A stretch of 64,000 nt of DNA. Origin: Convolutriloba macropyga. Taxonomy: Eukaryota. Positions 18,001 to 30,000 of this stretch are shown here, piece by piece; the stretch's first letter is position 1; each line of letters begins with the position of its first letter. The stretch is taken from positions 65,162,001 to 65,226,000 of the forward strand of contig NC_134471.1 of NCBI RefSeq assembly GCF_964194025.1, given 5' to 3'. Made by a program: the position numbers.

Positions 18001-21000
18001 GTTTTGTTCCATTTGCTTGTTTTTGTTCCAATAAATTGTCGCCATACTTGTTCGCTAGTAACTCAAAGTGGAAATCATTGGAGGTAATTTCAGGCGTTAG
18101 AGTCTCTCTATCAACGTTTTGGCTGATGCACAACTCATAATCTACGCCCGAGTTGTTCTTTGCAGCATTCCTAGCGCTTTTACACCTCCATTTCTGGAAT
18201 ACCCAGCTAGGGAATTTTTGGCTACGATAGGTAAAACGTAGCCCCTGTAGGTGTTCAGTTATGAAGTTTGCCCTTGTTGAGATGTTGAGATAAAGAGTGA
18301 ATAAACTTTTAGTGTGATAACCGCAATCTCCGAGAAATCTCTGAAAGGAACAGAGGAGATAACTGAAAAAAGTCCTACCATTTACGGTTAACTGTTTTCT
18401 CCCTCTACATTACGTGTAAAAACACACCAATTGATAATCAACTGATAACAGAAAACTAAATTTTGAAAGTTTTTTGTTCAAACAGATGCAAAGTTCCAAG
18501 AAATTTTCTATTGCTTTACTACATTGTCGAATTGATTTCATTTTAATTGTAATTTGAATAAGTTGCATTTTACATGAAGTTGGCAGATATAGCGAAATAC
18601 TTTGTAAACGTTTTTTATTATTGATAATTTTCCCAGAACAATTAACTTTTCTCCTTTCATGAATATTATTCTCCTTTCATAGATTTTTTCTTGCTAAATA
18701 GTTTTTAGATAAAAGACTAATGACAATAAATCTGTTTAATTGTGAAAACCTTACTCTAAACCCGTTTCGGAAGCAGAAGATAAACAGGAGGCGCAGATGG
18801 CTGAAAATTGAGTGCTACCATCATGGTAATCTTCTTCTACATAGTTCTCAATGTGAAATTACAGCAACTGTTAGCCAAACTATGAAAAAAAATTTTTTGA
18901 AACAAATGCAGGTATGATGTAATTTGCACCGCAAGAGACTATCGCACAACTTTGCCTTAATTACAAAAAAACTGCTAAGAAATTGGGACAAACAAAAAAT
19001 AATGAAAGAAAAAGGCGAAATAGTCTTCCTAGATAAGGCTGTCTGCGTTGATGAACAAAAAAGTCTCTTGCAACTGGTACAAAAATTCAACAGAAAGCGG
19101 AGCAATACTGAACTTCCGTACCTGCAAAAACCTCCAGCAGAAAATTTATGCTGACGCCGCTATCCATAAGTTTTTCTGATCAACGAGCAACTGGGATTAC
19201 TCTGTTGAAATTTTAAATATCAACAAAAACATTTGGCAGAGAGAGCAAAATCCTGAACATTGGACTTCAAGTAGTGTAATTAAGACTAATTGAAATATTT
19301 TAGTTAACCGAAAAACGGACTGCAAAAAACCAGTAGAACGCTTTTCTAAGGTTATGAGAAACCCGAGGCAGGAAACAATATTTTTTTGTACTTTAGAGGC
19401 CAAAAGTGCATTAGACCAAAAGAAAACTGACTAAAATAACGGCTCCTACAGTTTTCTACACAACAAAAAAACCCAAAACCTCCTTATGATCCTTTAAGTC
19501 TAGTATTGATCAGCATCTAAAATCAAACCTGGTATACGAACAAACTTGTAGTGCATACATTTTGTGCAAACTTGCACTCATATAATAGTTGCAGACATAT
19601 AATGCAGACATATAACATAAAGTAGTTTGCTTGGTGTATGTTTTTTGAAAGCAATGTGCCACAAATACTTCTGACTCATGAACCAAAACTCATAGTGCAG
19701 CGCAAAAGCATCGACTAAAGCGCTTGAGAAGGACCGAAGCAAGGAACTAGCATTAAATCTTTACTTAAGATTTGATGGATATATTCCTTGATCCAAAATA
19801 TATGTTTTAGCGCATTAAAGAGCTGAAATGTTCAGAATTTTTGCTAGAATTTTGGAAAAAATAAAAAAAATTTTGAGATTTAAATTGCCAGACCCTCAAT
19901 AGCAATTGAAATACATAACGGGAAACTTTTTAATTTTTCAAATGTAAAAATTTAAGAAACTCTTATTTCATTATTTTACTTCATAAATGAATTATTATTA
20001 ACTTAAATTCAAATTAAAAAACTTTCATCTTGTCCCATGGTTGTAGATATAAGAAAAACTTTTGCTAATAATTTTTATAATTAACTTAGCTTTTGAACAA
20101 ACAATCTTTATAATTAAAGACTCGCATGCGGAATTCTTCTTGCGAAAGAAAATGCCCTAAATATCTACCTTAATGGATAAAAGCAAAAAATAGTAATTGT
20201 TCTTAAAAGTAAGAACCTTCCTGAAAAACAAAATTTTGGAGTGAGAGGATAACGAGGACTCGGGGATGACTGAAAAAGAGAGCTAGATGACGTTATTTGT
20301 ATTGCAATGATGGACCCCAATTACAAGTTAGAATTAAATGATCTTTATTGCATCGCAAAGAGGCACGTCTAAAATTTGTTACAAGTAGGAAACAATTTGC
20401 ATGCAAAATTTATTTCAGAATTGGAAATTGAAGAAAGCACGTTCACTATTCTTGCTAGATAGAGCTGTCTACGTTTGTGAAAAGAAGAAACTCTTCTGTA
20501 AAAGGTGCAAAAATCCAACAGAAACTTGAACAAAACTAAAATATGCAGCTGCTCACACCTTTAGCAGAAAGTTTTCTTTGAGTGCGCTATCCCTAAGTTT
20601 TGCAATTGACGAGAAACTGGCTTTACTCAGGAGAAATCGAACATATCAACAAAAATATACGGCAAAAAGAAAATTTCCCGAGACTCGGACATTAGGCATT
20701 GCAAATAGAAACATTTAAGATAACCCAAAAAGACCACAAAAACGGCAGCTTAATTCAATTCTTTAGTTATGGAAATTCAGTAGAAAATACCAAAAAACTT
20801 TTCTGCTTTACCCAGGCCAATAAAGCATCTGACCAAAAAACTATTAAAAAATAACGGCTGCTTTAGGGATTTATATAACAAAGCAACTGAAAATTTGTTT
20901 ACCATCCTCGAAGTCTAGGTTTGATCAGCATCTAAAATGACATCAGCTATGCAAAATAATTTATAGTGAATGCCTTTCCAATTGTGTTGGGCGAACTTGA

Positions 21001-27000: not shown

Positions 27001-30000
27001 TTTAATTTTTCAAAATTAATACCGCAATGATGAAATATCACTAATATCTTTGGACGGCTGAATCAATAGTAAACTCAAGTTATAAAGAGAAACAGAATTT
27101 TAGAAACTTTCTGTTTAACAAAAAAAATTCCAGGAAGCACTTCTTTCTTTCAAAAGATACATTCTTTTGGTTTTAATTCATAAATGTGCTAAAATCATTT
27201 TAACGGTAAGTTAATTAACTTGCGATTTGCCCGATGATGACAGATTAAGTAAGAATCTTTTTAAAACTGTTTGAGTTCTGGAACAAGTACTCGTTCCCTA
27301 TTAATTGAGTTAAATTAAATTTTTTAGACTAACTGGATATATTTGAAATTTTTAACTAACTGGATATATTGCAGAGTTAAAAATTTTTTAATTGTGAAAA
27401 CCTTACTTGAAACGCATGCTTTGTATGAAGAAGAAAAGCATGGATCGGAGATGACTGAGAAAGATTAGCTACCATCAATTGTTAATCCTTCTTTCACATT
27501 ACTTTATATTTGAAGTTACAACCACAGATAACTAGGAAAAGAAAACTTTGAAAACGAATAGGAAATTTCTTCAACGCTAATACAAGCCCAAAAATCTGCT
27601 CCATCTGGGAAATGTTTTGCATGCAAGTAACGAATTAATGAAAAAATGAGCTGGCCTTCTGAGATACTGCTGTGTACGTTGATGAAAAAAGAAATAACCA
27701 TTGTAAAGGCGATCAAAAAACGTACCTGCGCACAACTTCAGCAAAGAAAAATGTTTCTGAGGGCGCTATTTAAGCGTTTTTCCGATCTACAAAAGCATAT
27801 GGCTTAAAAAACAGTATCCTGAGTATTCGACATCAGGCATTGAAAATCAGACAAAAACATTTTTTAACCAAAACAAGACCACAAAACAGCTGAAGATTCC
27901 AGAATTATGTTACACTAGGAGGAAATACCACGCTTTTTCTACATTATAGAGGTAAATAAAACTTAAGACTGGAAAATAATATTAGATTTAAAAAATTACG
28001 GCTCATACAGTGACTTACACGAAAAACAATATCAGTTCCCGCTTACCATCCTTAAAGTCTAGCTTTTTTCAACAGCTAAAATTGCACCTGGTTTACTTAA
28101 ATTTTTGTTGAGAACGCATTGCCAGCTTTGTCGGTCCAACGTGCAGACATCTAACCACGCCGATTGCAGAGGATCACAAAAAGGACTCACATGTTTATCA
28201 GCATGCAATTCGATACTTTGGCACCTCTTGAAATTTGAATGACCTGTCTCTAGTGCAAAAATATGCCCCAAAAACTCAAGACTGTTATGCCAATAAGCAT
28301 AACACAAGAGGAACCATCTCTTAACACGCCTGACCGGAACCGCAGCCAGGAACTGACATTAAATTGTTAGTCAAACTTAGACATGTTGCTTTATTGGAAA
28401 ATTACTTTTTAGAGTATTTAAACGTTCAATCTTCAACATTATTGAAATCTTAGTTTCAAAGGAAAACATAGTTCAGAAAACATCTTTTTTTAATCGCTTT
28501 ATATCATAAAAAAATTTTATCATTTTTCTTGAATGAACAATTTGAATGATCTGTAATTTAGCTGACCATGCCAGGATAAGCAATGAACATATAATTCTTT
28601 TAATTGTCTTAGTTTTTGAACAACTAATGCTTCTGCTCTAATTTTTTTTATAGCGGATTTTTTTCTTGTGTTAGAAACTGGTTCAAAATTTTAACCGCCT
28701 GAAGACAAGTCAAAAAACAATAAATTTGTTTCAAGGCCAGAACCCTTCTCAATACCAAAGTTTTGGATGCAGAGATCAGGTAGGAAACTATTTTCGTAGG
28801 AAATTTTTTTCGAAGTTGAAAAAATGGGCACTCTTTTGTTACAGCTAAAACGTTTTAGAAGAAGAAAAAAACAATTAAGTTTGATTAAATGTATAATATA
28901 TGAAGAGGTTACATGTTTAGTCAAACGGCGGAGAAAAATAAAATCGCTTATTATACATTTAAATAAGAAAATAAAAGGTTACTCGCCTTTTCAGTTTTTT
29001 AAAGTTACTTTTGATTGGTGATGTAGTCGTAAAGCACAAAATTCAGCGCATGTGAGTTCGTGTTTTAGTACTAAAAAGCATTTTGGTTAATTGTAAGGAC
29101 TCTAGAACCTTTAAAATTAGAGCTGAAGAAAAAGATTTGAATCCCCAGTTCAATTGCGCGTTCAAGTAATGAGATTAAGTTATTCTTATTATTGAATAAT
29201 AACAGAGCCGAGTAATGTAAATACAATAGCACAAGCGAGCTGAGATGTTTTTCCAGATTTTTGTTGGAAAATGAACCTTATAGATTGTATTGTTTTATTT
29301 CCTACAGCGATGCCCTGTAGATTACTTTACTTGAGTTTCTGTAACGTTTTCGATATTGTTTCTACCAAACCCTCTCGCAATGACATCGCTCCATTTGCTC
29401 ACCGTTGAAGGGGCTCGTTTTGGAATCTATAGACACTAGGGCGTCGACCCAGGTTGAGGTTCCATCCGGAAGTGACCTCTGATCATCCGATGTCCACGGT
29501 GTGTTCCCAGACCATAATTACAGGGTCTGGGTTTTGGTGCCGGATGGGAATAGTCTGATCAGGGGTCTGATCAGGGCTTCGGTATTCACGGAATGTAGAG
29601 TTGAGTTGGCTGCAGGCAGCTATCTGGGCAGTTATTCTCCTCGTTTGCATCTGCTTTGGTCAAAGCATCAATTGTTTTCATTTTTATTCTGTTCTATGCT
29701 TTCAAATTTTTCTTTCGGTTTGGATTTTCAAACTGTAGGAACAACTGATATTTATAGTTGTGTATATCCAAATTTTTTTTGGCACAGCTAGAATAGAATT
29801 GAAATGGTGTTGACCAAAGATATGTTATTTCTTCGTGAGCGGATTTGTAGAATTTGTATTTAATTTTGTCTTCGATAGACAAAAATTTTTCCGAAGTCAC
29901 AATGCAAAAAATAAACCAATAAATCATCAGGGGACAACCAACTTTTCTAGAGGAGTTATTTTCTGTCTATATAGAAAGGAAGTCATAAAATTACATAATT

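What the first reader, a model, noticed from the sequence alone, without database searches (positions are those of the whole stretch)
18430..29305. An 11-kb satellite-like array built from Penelope RT-tail/GIY-YIG units
A region that looks non-coding is about seven head-to-tail ~1.4-1.46 kb units. Each spans roughly the YVDD region through GIY-YIG plus UTR, and most start at a similar point. Penelope elements are known to make partial tandems, but a 7-unit array with constant period and strongly diverged monomers is unusual. It may be a non-autonomous, ribozyme-processed, retrozyme-like unit that kept coding remnants, or a TE-derived satellite or piRNA source (inference).
Basis: partly seen in the sequence, partly recalled or inferred. 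Interest (0 to 1): 0.65.

Follow-up and report, generated by a model that had tools for sequence, protein, structure and literature searches.

The report
Decayed tandem array of Penelope fragments
An 11-kb stretch is a long-dead tandem repeat made of the back third of a Penelope-like retrotransposon gene plus an AT-rich spacer, enlarged mainly by ordinary DNA duplication; it is a real but fairly ordinary piece of transposon-derived repeat DNA.

Summary
Window 18438-29312 (+) holds about seven head-to-tail units of 1.33-1.49 kb. Each unit is a broken coding remnant plus a 505-600 bp AT-rich spacer. The remnant covers at most residues 405-707 of a 708-aa relative, whose YVDD motif is at 404 and whose GIY-YIG domain is at 614-691. 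[quoted passage not shown]

The array is not one uniform seven-unit satellite. There are three old lineages (U1, U3, U4; 37-41% different). U2 is a mosaic that a one-period unequal exchange would produce. The second half is a young block duplication (86-99% identical) that copied about 430 bp of non-repeat flank along with the units. Differences between units are even across codon positions in 15 of 15 pairs, whereas two independent copies show a third-position excess. So the units decayed as dead DNA.

No hammerhead or other ribozyme was found, so the retrozyme-like reading is unsupported. The piRNA idea cannot be tested here. Satellites derived from Penelope elements are already in the literature (PMC12692304). 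Verdict: new member of a known kind, low-to-moderate interest.

The parts
18438..29312 (+). Whole feature: two sub-arrays of PLE-derived units plus the co-duplicated flank pieces
   Evidence: Self-blastn; nhmmer with a natural monomer; spacer profile with 9 copies, all inside these bounds; shuffle control
18438..18908 (+). U0p: leftmost partial unit, spacer only (spacer-profile positions 66-544). This is the left edge of the array.
   Evidence: edge sequence read
18909..20332 (+). U1: unit of 1424 bp. Broken RT-tail/GIY-YIG remnant (detected 19042-19555 = P0004 451-623), then a spacer from about 19776/19810. The gene is 5'-truncated and broken: pieces in 2 frames and 3 stops inside the aligned pieces.
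20333..21785 (+). U2: unit of 1453 bp and a mosaic (head like U3, tail like U1). Remnant detected 20413-21033 = P0004 432-644. Broken: up to 2 frames and 8 stops in the P0006 chain.
21786..23226 (+). U3: unit of 1441 bp. Remnant detected 22072-22668 = P0004 504-707. It holds the longest open segment of the array (141 codons, 22167-22589). Broken: 2 frames and 1 stop inside the aligned pieces.
23227..24555 (+). U4: unit of 1329 bp and the most divergent lineage. Only the last ~120 codons are detectable (23679-24038 = P0004 587-707), with 1 stop. Its spacer (24051-24555) is complete and ends sub-array A.
24556..24995 (+). F: non-repeat flank after sub-array A. It matches only F' and no unit part.
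   Evidence: E 5e-83 to 28886-29311; edges read
24971..25318 (+). Rearranged junction piece: a spacer fragment (spacer-profile positions 142-480)
   Evidence: also (25005-25304)
25354..26060 (+). U5p: back half of a unit (monomer positions 756-1404), 95% identical to the tail of U1
26061..27552 (+). U6: unit of 1492 bp and a young copy of U3 (88%). It has the longest protein match, 26061-26942 = P0004 405-705 in one frame, with 10 stops. Spacer 26950-27552.
27553..28883 (+). U7: unit of 1331 bp and a young copy of U4 (90%). Remnant detected 27788-28364 = P0004 512-707; 2 frames, 7 stops.
28884..29312 (+). F': second copy of flank F and the right edge of the duplicated block. Unrelated sequence follows.
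17088..17685 (-). Neighbour: broken N-terminal (pre-PHD) RT fragment of the same protein family, head-to-head with the array about 750 bp away. It matches P0006 30-335 and P0004 134-287 (3 pieces).
53924..54797 (-). Independent PLE copy elsewhere in the window: P0004 409-702, 2 frames, 4-11 stops depending on the query. It keeps 19 of 22 covered family-invariant residues. No array-type spacer follows it.
54807..55320 (-). Second independent PLE piece. GIY-YIG part 54807-55155 = P0004 576-692 (84% identical; Pfam GIY-YIG at 54801-55055, E 1.9e-6, above gathering). It is preceded by a weak PHD match at 55153-55320 (E 0.0024, below gathering).

Best explanation
The region is a dead, DNA-amplified tandem repeat derived from a Penelope-like element (PLE). 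Each unit has two parts. The first is the last ~300 codons of the PLE gene, from the RT catalytic YVDD motif through the thumb/linker to the C-terminal GIY-YIG endonuclease. The second is a 505-600 bp AT-rich spacer, most simply the element's 3' non-coding tail (inferred).

The first 3'-end-to-YVDD junction probably came from a PLE-type partial-tandem insertion of a 5'-truncated copy (inferred). After that, the locus grew as ordinary tandem DNA:
- Three old lineages (U1, U3, U4) diverged neutrally.
- One unequal exchange, with its breakpoint inside the unit, made the mosaic U2 (shown).
- One recent segmental duplication copied several units together with ~430 bp of adjacent non-repeat flank, with loss of one period and rearrangement at the join (shown).

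The sequence gives no sign of present function. Every unit is truncated and broken, and no ribozyme is present.
For: PLE identity:
- The array's own segment finds 30 relatives, and 9 of those 30 have GIY-YIG.
- A profile of window fragments finds 51 proteins (best E 1.2e-66).
- P0004 is RVT_1 174-322 + PHD 338-386 + GIY-YIG 614-691, with YVDD at 404.
- Units map to at most positions 405-707, all on the + strand.
- + strand segments match the independent copies at 53.9-55.1 kb, while antisense segments over the same DNA do not.
- The P0004 model's two best PDB fold matches are TERT.

Same boundaries in every unit.

DNA-level growth:
- Mosaic U2: head 74-84% to U3 against 60-65% to U1; tail 74-81% to U1 against 52-62% to U3.
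- Flank F is duplicated together with the units, and both blocks end at the same short motif.
- Identity comes in tiers: 57-61%, 69-71% and 88-95%.

Decay without coding constraint:
- Differences are even over codon positions in 15 of 15 pairs (p 0.41-0.93) and in 14 of 14 pairs.
- The control pair of independent copies gives 32/16/57 (p 5e-6).
- Units keep only 4-12 of 26 family-invariant residues, against 14 of 15 and 19 of 22 covered positions in the independent copies.
Against: - The nature of the spacer is not shown. It has no protein, Rfam or DNA match outside the array, and it is not found after the independent 53.9-kb copy. It could therefore be non-PLE DNA.
- The three oldest lineages are about equidistant (37-41%). 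That also fits a single-event concatemer, so the origin of the first units is unresolved.
- Sub-array A spans n+0.33 periods: it starts at spacer position 66 and ends at a complete spacer. A pure duplication of one unique segment would not give that.
- Direct Pfam scans of the array's own 137 open segments found no RT or GIY-YIG match at E<=1. PLE identity therefore rests on relatives and profiles, not on a direct Pfam hit.
- Only one 64-kb window was seen, so copy number elsewhere in the genome is unknown.
Confidence: 0.7

Rival explanations
1. One-step RT-made concatemer. The core of the array (U0p-U1-U3-U4) was synthesised in a single PLE integration, by repeated end-to-end template jumps on an RNA whose 5' end lay at the YVDD codon. 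That would give identical junctions, a complete 3' end and a randomly truncated 5' end. Only later events (U2, the block duplication) were DNA-level.
For: - All internal junctions are the same.
- Sub-array A ends at a complete spacer end and begins inside a spacer, the polarity expected of target-primed reverse transcription.
- The three oldest lineages are roughly equidistant.
- More-than-unit reverse transcription has been proposed for PLEs (PMC4209133, Discussion passage).
Against: - There is no direct evidence for an RNA ending at YVDD.
- Equidistance at ~40% divergence is close to saturation and discriminates weakly.
- The two growth events that can be resolved are both DNA-level.
- The spacer is not shown to be PLE sequence.
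Confidence: 0.2
2. Retrozyme-like or otherwise mobile non-autonomous unit. The 1.4-kb unit is transcribed, processed by a ribozyme (possibly into circles) and copied in trans by PLE RT. The array would then be its rolling-circle product and possibly a small-RNA source.
For: - Non-LTR retrozymes are argued to be PLE derivatives arranged in tandem (bioRxiv 10.64898/2026.07.22.740005, abstract and section 14).
- Loose hammerhead-core candidates are about 4 times denser in the array than in the rest of the window (6 against 7 in about 5 times more sequence), and all are on the + strand.
Against: - No ribozyme family was found in Rfam at gathering score or at E<=10.
- The strict core is at chance level.
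- The six loose sites are not periodic. Only the recently duplicated U4/U7 pair shares a phase, and it lies inside the coding remnant.
- None of the six folds better than shuffles (z -0.82 to +1.26).
- Retrozymes relate to pLTR termini, not to coding parts (section 14 of the preprint).
- The resolved duplications have breakpoints inside the unit and in flanking DNA.
Confidence: 0.05
3. Independent nested or adjacent insertions of related 5'-truncated PLE copies into a hotspot (for example the element's own AT-rich tail), which only mimic a tandem repeat.
For: - A PLE RNP can nick AT-rich DNA in its own pLTR (PMC11167929, passage).
- The spacers are AT-rich (GC 0.275-0.299).
- A second junction near the same protein position exists at 54797/54807.
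Against: - All six full units start at the same monomer position (5-32) and end at the same spacer end, with no unit-specific DNA and no target-site duplications between them.
- Divergence between units shows no codon-position bias in 15 of 15 pairs, unlike the truly independent copies.
Confidence: 0.05

Closest known systems
Penelope-like elements with C-terminal GIY-YIG endonuclease, and their partial tandems (pseudo-LTR arrangement)
   Same: [quoted passage not shown]
- Head-to-tail arrangement, heavy 5' truncation and an adjacent inverted fragment are all described as typical PLE features (PMC8557442 and PMC11167929, passages).
   Different: - The usual picture is a full-length copy preceded by one truncated copy, with a period equal to the whole element (~3 kb). 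Here all units are truncated at the same internal point.
- The period is 1.33-1.49 kb and no full-length copy is present.
- No hammerhead motif was found.
- At least two of the expansions are DNA-level.
- The relatives carry a PHD finger between the N-terminal RT part and YVDD.
Transposon-derived satellite/tandem DNA (tandemisation of part of a TE)
   Same: - Part of a TE, repeated head to tail and enlarged by unequal exchange and higher-order block duplication.
- A 2025 review lists Penelope elements among the sources of satellite DNAs (PMC12692304, one passage read).
   Different: - Only about 7 unit equivalents at one locus were seen.
- Monomers are not homogenised: old lineages are 57-61% identical.
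- Genome-wide abundance is unknown.
Non-LTR retrozymes of animals
   Same: They are tandem, PLE-related and non-autonomous (bioRxiv 10.64898/2026.07.22.740005, abstract and section 14).
   Different: - Retrozymes carry type I hammerheads and resemble the pLTR termini of PLEs.
- These units show no hammerhead and are two-thirds coding remnant.
- That retrozyme monomers are much shorter is recalled, not taken from a call.

Membership tests
Penelope-like element (canonical, C-terminal EN+) | RT and GIY-YIG endonuclease in one ORF, with the endonuclease C-terminal | tested here: met
   - Relatives: P0004 has RVT_1 174-322 and GIY-YIG 614-691.
- The units match positions 405-707 of that protein in the same order on one strand.
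- The units themselves hold only the part from YVDD onward.
Penelope-like element (canonical, C-terminal EN+) | GIY-YIG domain recognisable by profile | tested here: met
   - Direct Pfam scan of the array's 137 open segments: no hit at E<=1.
- Indirect evidence is positive: window copy 54801-55055(-) matches PF01541 at 28.5 bits (gathering 22.6), and array segments align to it at 36-41%.
- 9 of 30 proteins found with the array's own segment have GIY-YIG at E<=0.01.
- Units keep 3-8 of 11 invariant endonuclease-part residues.
Penelope-like element (canonical, C-terminal EN+) | RT most closely related to telomerase RT | tested here: inconclusive
   In the Foldseek search of the P0004 model (pLDDT 75.1), ranks 1, 2 and 6 are TERT (E 5e-6). 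TM-scores are only 0.29-0.35, and coronavirus RdRp, group II intron RT, LINE-1 ORF2p and Prp8 follow closely. No phylogeny with named PLE clades could be made, because no named references were obtainable.
Penelope-like element (canonical, C-terminal EN+) | Tandem or partial-tandem insertion with frequent 5' truncation | tested here: met
   Head-to-tail units, all 5'-truncated. The feature is as described in PMC8557442 and PMC11167929 (passages).
Penelope-like element (canonical, C-terminal EN+) | Hammerhead ribozyme motif in the pseudo-LTR | tested here: not met
   The copies are old and decayed, and some PLE clades lack canonical hammerheads (PMC8557442, abstract). So this lowers support but does not exclude membership.
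Non-LTR retrozyme | A hammerhead ribozyme in every tandem unit | tested here: not met
   There is no Rfam ribozyme match and no periodic core motif.
Non-LTR retrozyme | Unit-length circular or linear RNA | not testable with these tools
   No expression data were available.
Satellite DNA | Head-to-tail monomers enlarged by unequal exchange, with higher-order structure | tested here: met
Satellite DNA | High copy number, long arrays and homogenised monomers | tested here: not met
   - Within the window there are about 7 unit equivalents at one locus, and the spacer profile finds nothing elsewhere.
- Old monomers are 57-61% identical.
- Genome-wide abundance is not testable here.

The most novel reading that the evidence does not exclude
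The core of the array is a fossil of a single reverse-transcription event. In that event a PLE RT made a multi-unit concatemer by jumping from the end of an RNA broken or started at the YVDD codon to the 3' end of the next template. This would be a natural record of how PLE tandems arise. A second junction at nearly the same protein position in an independent copy (54797/54807) would then hint at a preferred break or start point just after the PHD insertion of this PLE lineage. That lineage is apparently undescribed: it has a C-terminal endonuclease and a PHD finger inside the RT.
Probability: 0.15. Interest if true: 0.5.

Novelty: new member of a known kind. Interest (0 to 1): 0.27.

Why it matters
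The array is a cleanly resolved example of how a fragment of a Penelope-like element turns into tandem DNA. It has a fixed internal truncation point, followed by unequal exchange and then a block duplication that dragged flanking DNA along.

That is useful for repeat annotation, because such arrays can be mistaken for many separate insertions or for a retrozyme. It also serves as a small case study of satellite birth, but it does not change current views.

The more interesting by-product is the protein family behind it. This is a high-copy PLE lineage (clusters of 104, 220 and 242 member sequences) with a PHD finger between the N-terminal RT part and the catalytic YVDD. In the searchable literature I found PHD fingers in PLEs reported only for algal Chlamys elements.

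Tried and rejected
- TRF could not see the array because its period limit is 500 bp.
I sent stop-free single-frame segments instead.
- A direct Pfam scan of the array's 137 open segments gave nothing relevant.
- The sigma-70 promoter/terminator scan is meaningless for this eukaryotic DNA and was below shuffle level.
- Hammerhead search. Rfam gave nothing in three scans, and the strict core was at chance. A loose core scan looked enriched, but I rejected it because the hits are not periodic and have no folding support.
- Pile-up of relatives starting at P0004 398-412 (28 of 51 start at 350-449). I rejected it as evidence of a breakpoint. The search took only proteins of at least 248 aa, and the methionine of YMDD-type motifs is an available start codon for ORF callers.
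- Partial units U4' and U8'. I first read 24556-24995 and 28884-29312 as partial units. One search showed they are non-repeat flank. The U4 and U7 extents used therefore included about 130 bp of flank, which affects only the last alignment window.
- The spacer was searched for elsewhere in the window and for N-terminal or PHD protein signal. None was found.
- The PDB sequence search found only PHD fingers and no solved PLE.
- A paper on the crayfish repeatome (PMC7859515, two passages) held nothing relevant.
- No scan of genome contigs was made, because that collection holds only bacteria and archaea.

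
Full report
**1. Observation**

A self-comparison of 17000-31000 against the whole window gave 28 non-self alignments. All are direct and all lie within 18735-29312. Offsets are 1368-1426 bp at 64-73% identity, and 4265-5728 bp at 84-87% identity. Twenty shuffles of the region gave nothing longer than 68 bp, against 2281 bp observed. TRF reported only short repeats because its longest period is 500 bp.

I used one natural monomer as an nhmmer query and a profile of the natural spacers. Together they give this layout:

| Piece | Window coordinates | Note |
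|---|---|---|
| U0p | 18438-18908 | spacer only |
| U1 | 18909-20332 | full unit |
| U2 | 20333-21785 | full unit |
| U3 | 21786-23226 | full unit |
| U4 | 23227-24555 | full unit |
| F | 24556-24995 | non-repeat flank |
| spacer fragment | 24971-25318 | partial |
| U5p | 25354-26060 | back half of a unit |
| U6 | 26061-27552 | full unit |
| U7 | 27553-28883 | full unit |
| F' | 28884-29312 | second copy of the flank |

That is six full units of 1329-1492 bp plus three partial pieces, about 7.1 unit equivalents.

**2. What the units are**

Direct Pfam scans of all 137 stop-free segments of at least 40 aa from both strands of 17000-31000 found no RT or GIY-YIG match, even at E<=1. The evidence came from relatives instead.

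- Plus-strand open segments of the array matched, at 34-41% amino-acid identity, a region at 53.9-55.1 kb on the minus strand. Antisense segments over the same DNA did not.
- There, 54801-55055(-) matches Pfam GIY-YIG above its gathering score (28.5 against 22.6 bits).
- The array's own 141-codon open segment (22167-22589) found 30 proteins at E<=1e-3 among 1.84 billion representatives, best 7.2e-12. Of those 30, 9 have GIY-YIG at E<=0.01, one of them above gathering.
- A profile of seven window fragments (A1) found 51 longer proteins, best E 1.2e-66.
- The long relatives have RVT_1 (profile positions 1-143 of 205), then a PHD finger, then about 230 residues, then GIY-YIG. In the 708-aa P0004 these lie at 174-322, 338-386 and 614-691, with YVDD at 404.

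A retroelement protein that combines RT with a GIY-YIG endonuclease is the hallmark of Penelope-like elements. That rests on established knowledge and on PMC8557442 (abstract).

tblastn with eight long relatives and a profile of 19 relatives indexed to P0004 map six units to positions 405-707 at most. All are on the + strand, and none shows any signal upstream of YVDD. So 'YVDD region through GIY-YIG plus a non-coding tail' is correct.

The coding remnant takes about 820-910 bp of each unit. The remaining 505-600 bp is a spacer. Its GC content is 0.275-0.299, against 0.348-0.386 for the remnants. It has nine copies, all inside the array.

**3. State of the genes**

Every unit lacks the first ~404 codons and is broken (P0004 chains unless stated):

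| Unit | Frames | Stops in aligned pieces |
|---|---|---|
| U1 | 2 | 3 |
| U2 | up to 2 | 8 (P0006 chain) |
| U3 | 2 | 1 |
| U4 | 1 | 1 (only about 120 codons detectable) |
| U6 | 1 | 10 |
| U7 | 2 | 7 |

Units keep 4-12 of the 26 residues that are invariant in the 19 relatives. The two independent copies at 54.8 and 53.9 kb keep 14 of 15 and 19 of 22 covered positions.

**4. How the array grew**

- *Identity tiers.* U1-U3, U1-U4 and U3-U4 are 57-61% identical. U1-U2 and U2-U3 are 71 and 69%. U5p-U1, U6-U3 and U7-U4 are 95, 88 and 90%.
- *Mosaic U2.* Windowed identities show that U2's first ~750 bp are 74-84% identical to U3 but 60-65% to U1. Its last ~750 bp are 74-81% identical to U1 but 52-62% to U3. 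A one-period unequal exchange with a breakpoint inside the unit, in the GIY-YIG remnant, would give exactly this.
- *Co-duplicated flank.* The ~430 bp after U4 and after U7 match only each other (E 5e-83) and no unit part. Both blocks end at the same short motif before diverging. The young half of the array is therefore a segmental DNA duplication that carried non-repeat flank with it. One period was lost and the join at 24971-25353 is rearranged.
- *No coding constraint.* With codon positions taken from U6's single frame on the DNA alignment, differences are even over positions 1, 2 and 3 in 15 of 15 unit pairs (p 0.41-0.93). A profile-anchored version gives the same result in 14 of 14 pairs. 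The two independent copies at 53.9 and 54.8 kb differ 32/16/57 (p 5e-6), which is the signature of divergence under coding constraint. The units therefore diverged as dead DNA and were not inserted one by one from living elements.

The profile-anchored version is noisy, because the young pairs show more differences than their DNA identity implies. I therefore rely.

**5. What stays open about the origin**

The three oldest lineages are about equidistant (37-41% different in the coding part, 42-45% in the spacer). Sub-array A begins inside a spacer (profile position 66) and ends at a complete spacer end, so it spans n+0.33 periods. A duplication of one unique segment would give whole periods.

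An original PLE-type partial tandem would explain this, with the 3' end of one copy joined to a copy truncated at YVDD. So would a one-step RT-made concatemer, or later loss at the left edge. [quoted passage not shown] They are also described as using multi-copy RNA templates with internal initiation (PMC11167929, passages).

I cannot decide between these origins with one window. Whether the spacer is the element's 3' tail is also only inferred. It is not detectable after the independent 53.9-kb copy, whose DNA matches monomer positions 14-914 only.

**6. Ribozyme/retrozyme reading**

- Rfam found nothing at gathering score in the whole window.
- It found no ribozyme family at E<=10 in 17000-31000 or in a laxer scan of 23400-25900.
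- PLE hammerheads can be minimal forms (PMC4209133, passages), so I also searched for the core motif directly. The strict form is at chance level: 7 in the window against 7.55 expected, with 1 in the array.
- A loose form (one core mismatch, helix II of at least 4 pairs) gave 6 sites in the array, all on the + strand, against 7 in the remaining ~51 kb. Only one phase is shared, by the recently duplicated U4/U7 pair, and it lies inside the coding remnant. None of the six folds better than its shuffles (z -0.82 to +1.26).

Retrozymes are related to the pLTR termini of PLEs and carry type I hammerheads (bioRxiv 10.64898/2026.07.22.740005, abstract and section 14). These units do not fit that description.

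**7. Comparison with what is known, and novelty**

The array works like TE-derived tandem DNA. A 2025 review names Penelope elements among the sources of satellite DNAs (PMC12692304, one passage). It is not a satellite in the strict sense: it is low-copy, at one locus in the window, and not homogenised.

It differs from the textbook PLE partial tandem in four ways. The period is a truncated unit, no full-length copy is present, no hammerhead is seen, and the later growth was DNA-level. I rate it a new member of a known kind.

**8. The protein family**

The P0004 model (19-sequence alignment, mean pLDDT 75.1) has TERT as its two best PDB fold matches (E 5e-6). TM-scores are low (0.29-0.35) and other polymerases follow closely. 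By sequence, only its PHD part matches solved structures: MLL, KMT2C and PHF2 PHD fingers at E 0.002-0.005.

In the searchable library, the terms 'Penelope-like', 'PHD finger' and 'reverse transcriptase' co-occur in 2 papers, which are copies of one work. 'Penelope-like' and 'plant homeodomain' co-occur in 7 papers, of which 5 were listed. Four of those five are Chlamydomonas work and the fifth is a rice genome paper. PMC8557442 (passages) reports PHD insertions only in five Chlamys families with an N-terminal endonuclease.

A PHD finger between RT motif B and YVDD in a C-terminal-endonuclease PLE may therefore be undescribed. Subscription journals and supplementary files were not visible to me.

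**9. Limits**

- No eukaryotic genome or metagenome collection was available, so copy number and junctions elsewhere are unknown.
- Cluster names could not be looked up.
- Assignment to a named PLE clade (Neptune, Penelope/Poseidon, Nematis) was not possible without named references.
- I did not take the window for human: it carries endonuclease-bearing PLE copies, and the 2026 preprint (section 14) reports finding no PLEs in mammals.

Noticed in passing
relatives P0004, P0017, P0022 and others; window 55153-55320 (-): The PLE family behind the array carries a PHD finger between the N-terminal RT part (RVT_1 profile to 143 of 205) and the catalytic YVDD. 9 of the 51 relatives list PF00628, and some clusters hold 104-242 member sequences. 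In the searchable literature, PHD fingers in PLEs were reported only for algal Chlamys elements.
   Followed up: partly
window 53924-55320 (-): This is a second, much better preserved PLE cluster. A GIY-YIG piece (P0004 576-692, 84% identical to P0004, no stops) abuts, within about 10 bp, a copy that starts at P0004 409. That is nearly the same protein position at which the array units start (405). The two pieces differ mostly at third codon positions (32/16/57), so they come from separately living elements.
   Followed up: partly
window 17088-17685 (-): A broken N-terminal RT fragment of the same family (P0006 30-335) lies head-to-head with the array, about 750 bp from its left edge. Together with the units it would cover the ORF except the PHD part. 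Whether they once formed one element is unknown.
   Followed up: partly
window 42009-45230 (-): A LINE-type retrotransposon has two long open frames: an Exo_endo_phos endonuclease (552 aa ORF, E 4.6e-12) and RVT_1 (494 aa ORF, E 3.6e-24). It lies next to N runs at 41209-41939 and 45322-45739.
   Followed up: no
window 55997-59083 (+): An uninterrupted 1028-aa ORF encodes a presequence-protease-type M16C metallopeptidase (Peptidase_M16, M16_C, M16C_assoc, PreP_C; best E 7.5e-60). It starts about 600 bp from the PLE cluster. It is intronless in an otherwise TE-rich eukaryotic region, so it may be a retrocopy or the host may be intron-poor.
   Followed up: no
window 65-1384 (+): This 439-aa ORF has no Pfam match. 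The protein atlas gives a lead to protein-primed family B DNA polymerase clusters (DNA_pol_B_2 on 14-37% of members, score 0.94, 213 of 256 features). That suggests a Polinton/Maverick-type polymerase fragment. It is a lead only.
   Followed up: partly
window 5664-5942 (+); 35677-38127 (-): Other retroelement debris is present: an RT_RNaseH fragment (E 1.6e-13), and weak sub-threshold Pao-peptidase (A17) and DUF1759 matches that suggest a BEL/Pao-type LTR element remnant.
   Followed up: no
window 15575-15692 and 15913-16047: Two short arrays of a 15-bp unit lie in opposite orientation about 220 bp apart, forming an inverted pair of tandem repeats next to an N run (14969-15168).
   Followed up: no
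window 61693-61935 (+): An isolated open segment matches the C-terminal half of an RNA recognition motif (RRM_1, E 3e-5). It is possibly an exon of a host gene.
   Followed up: no
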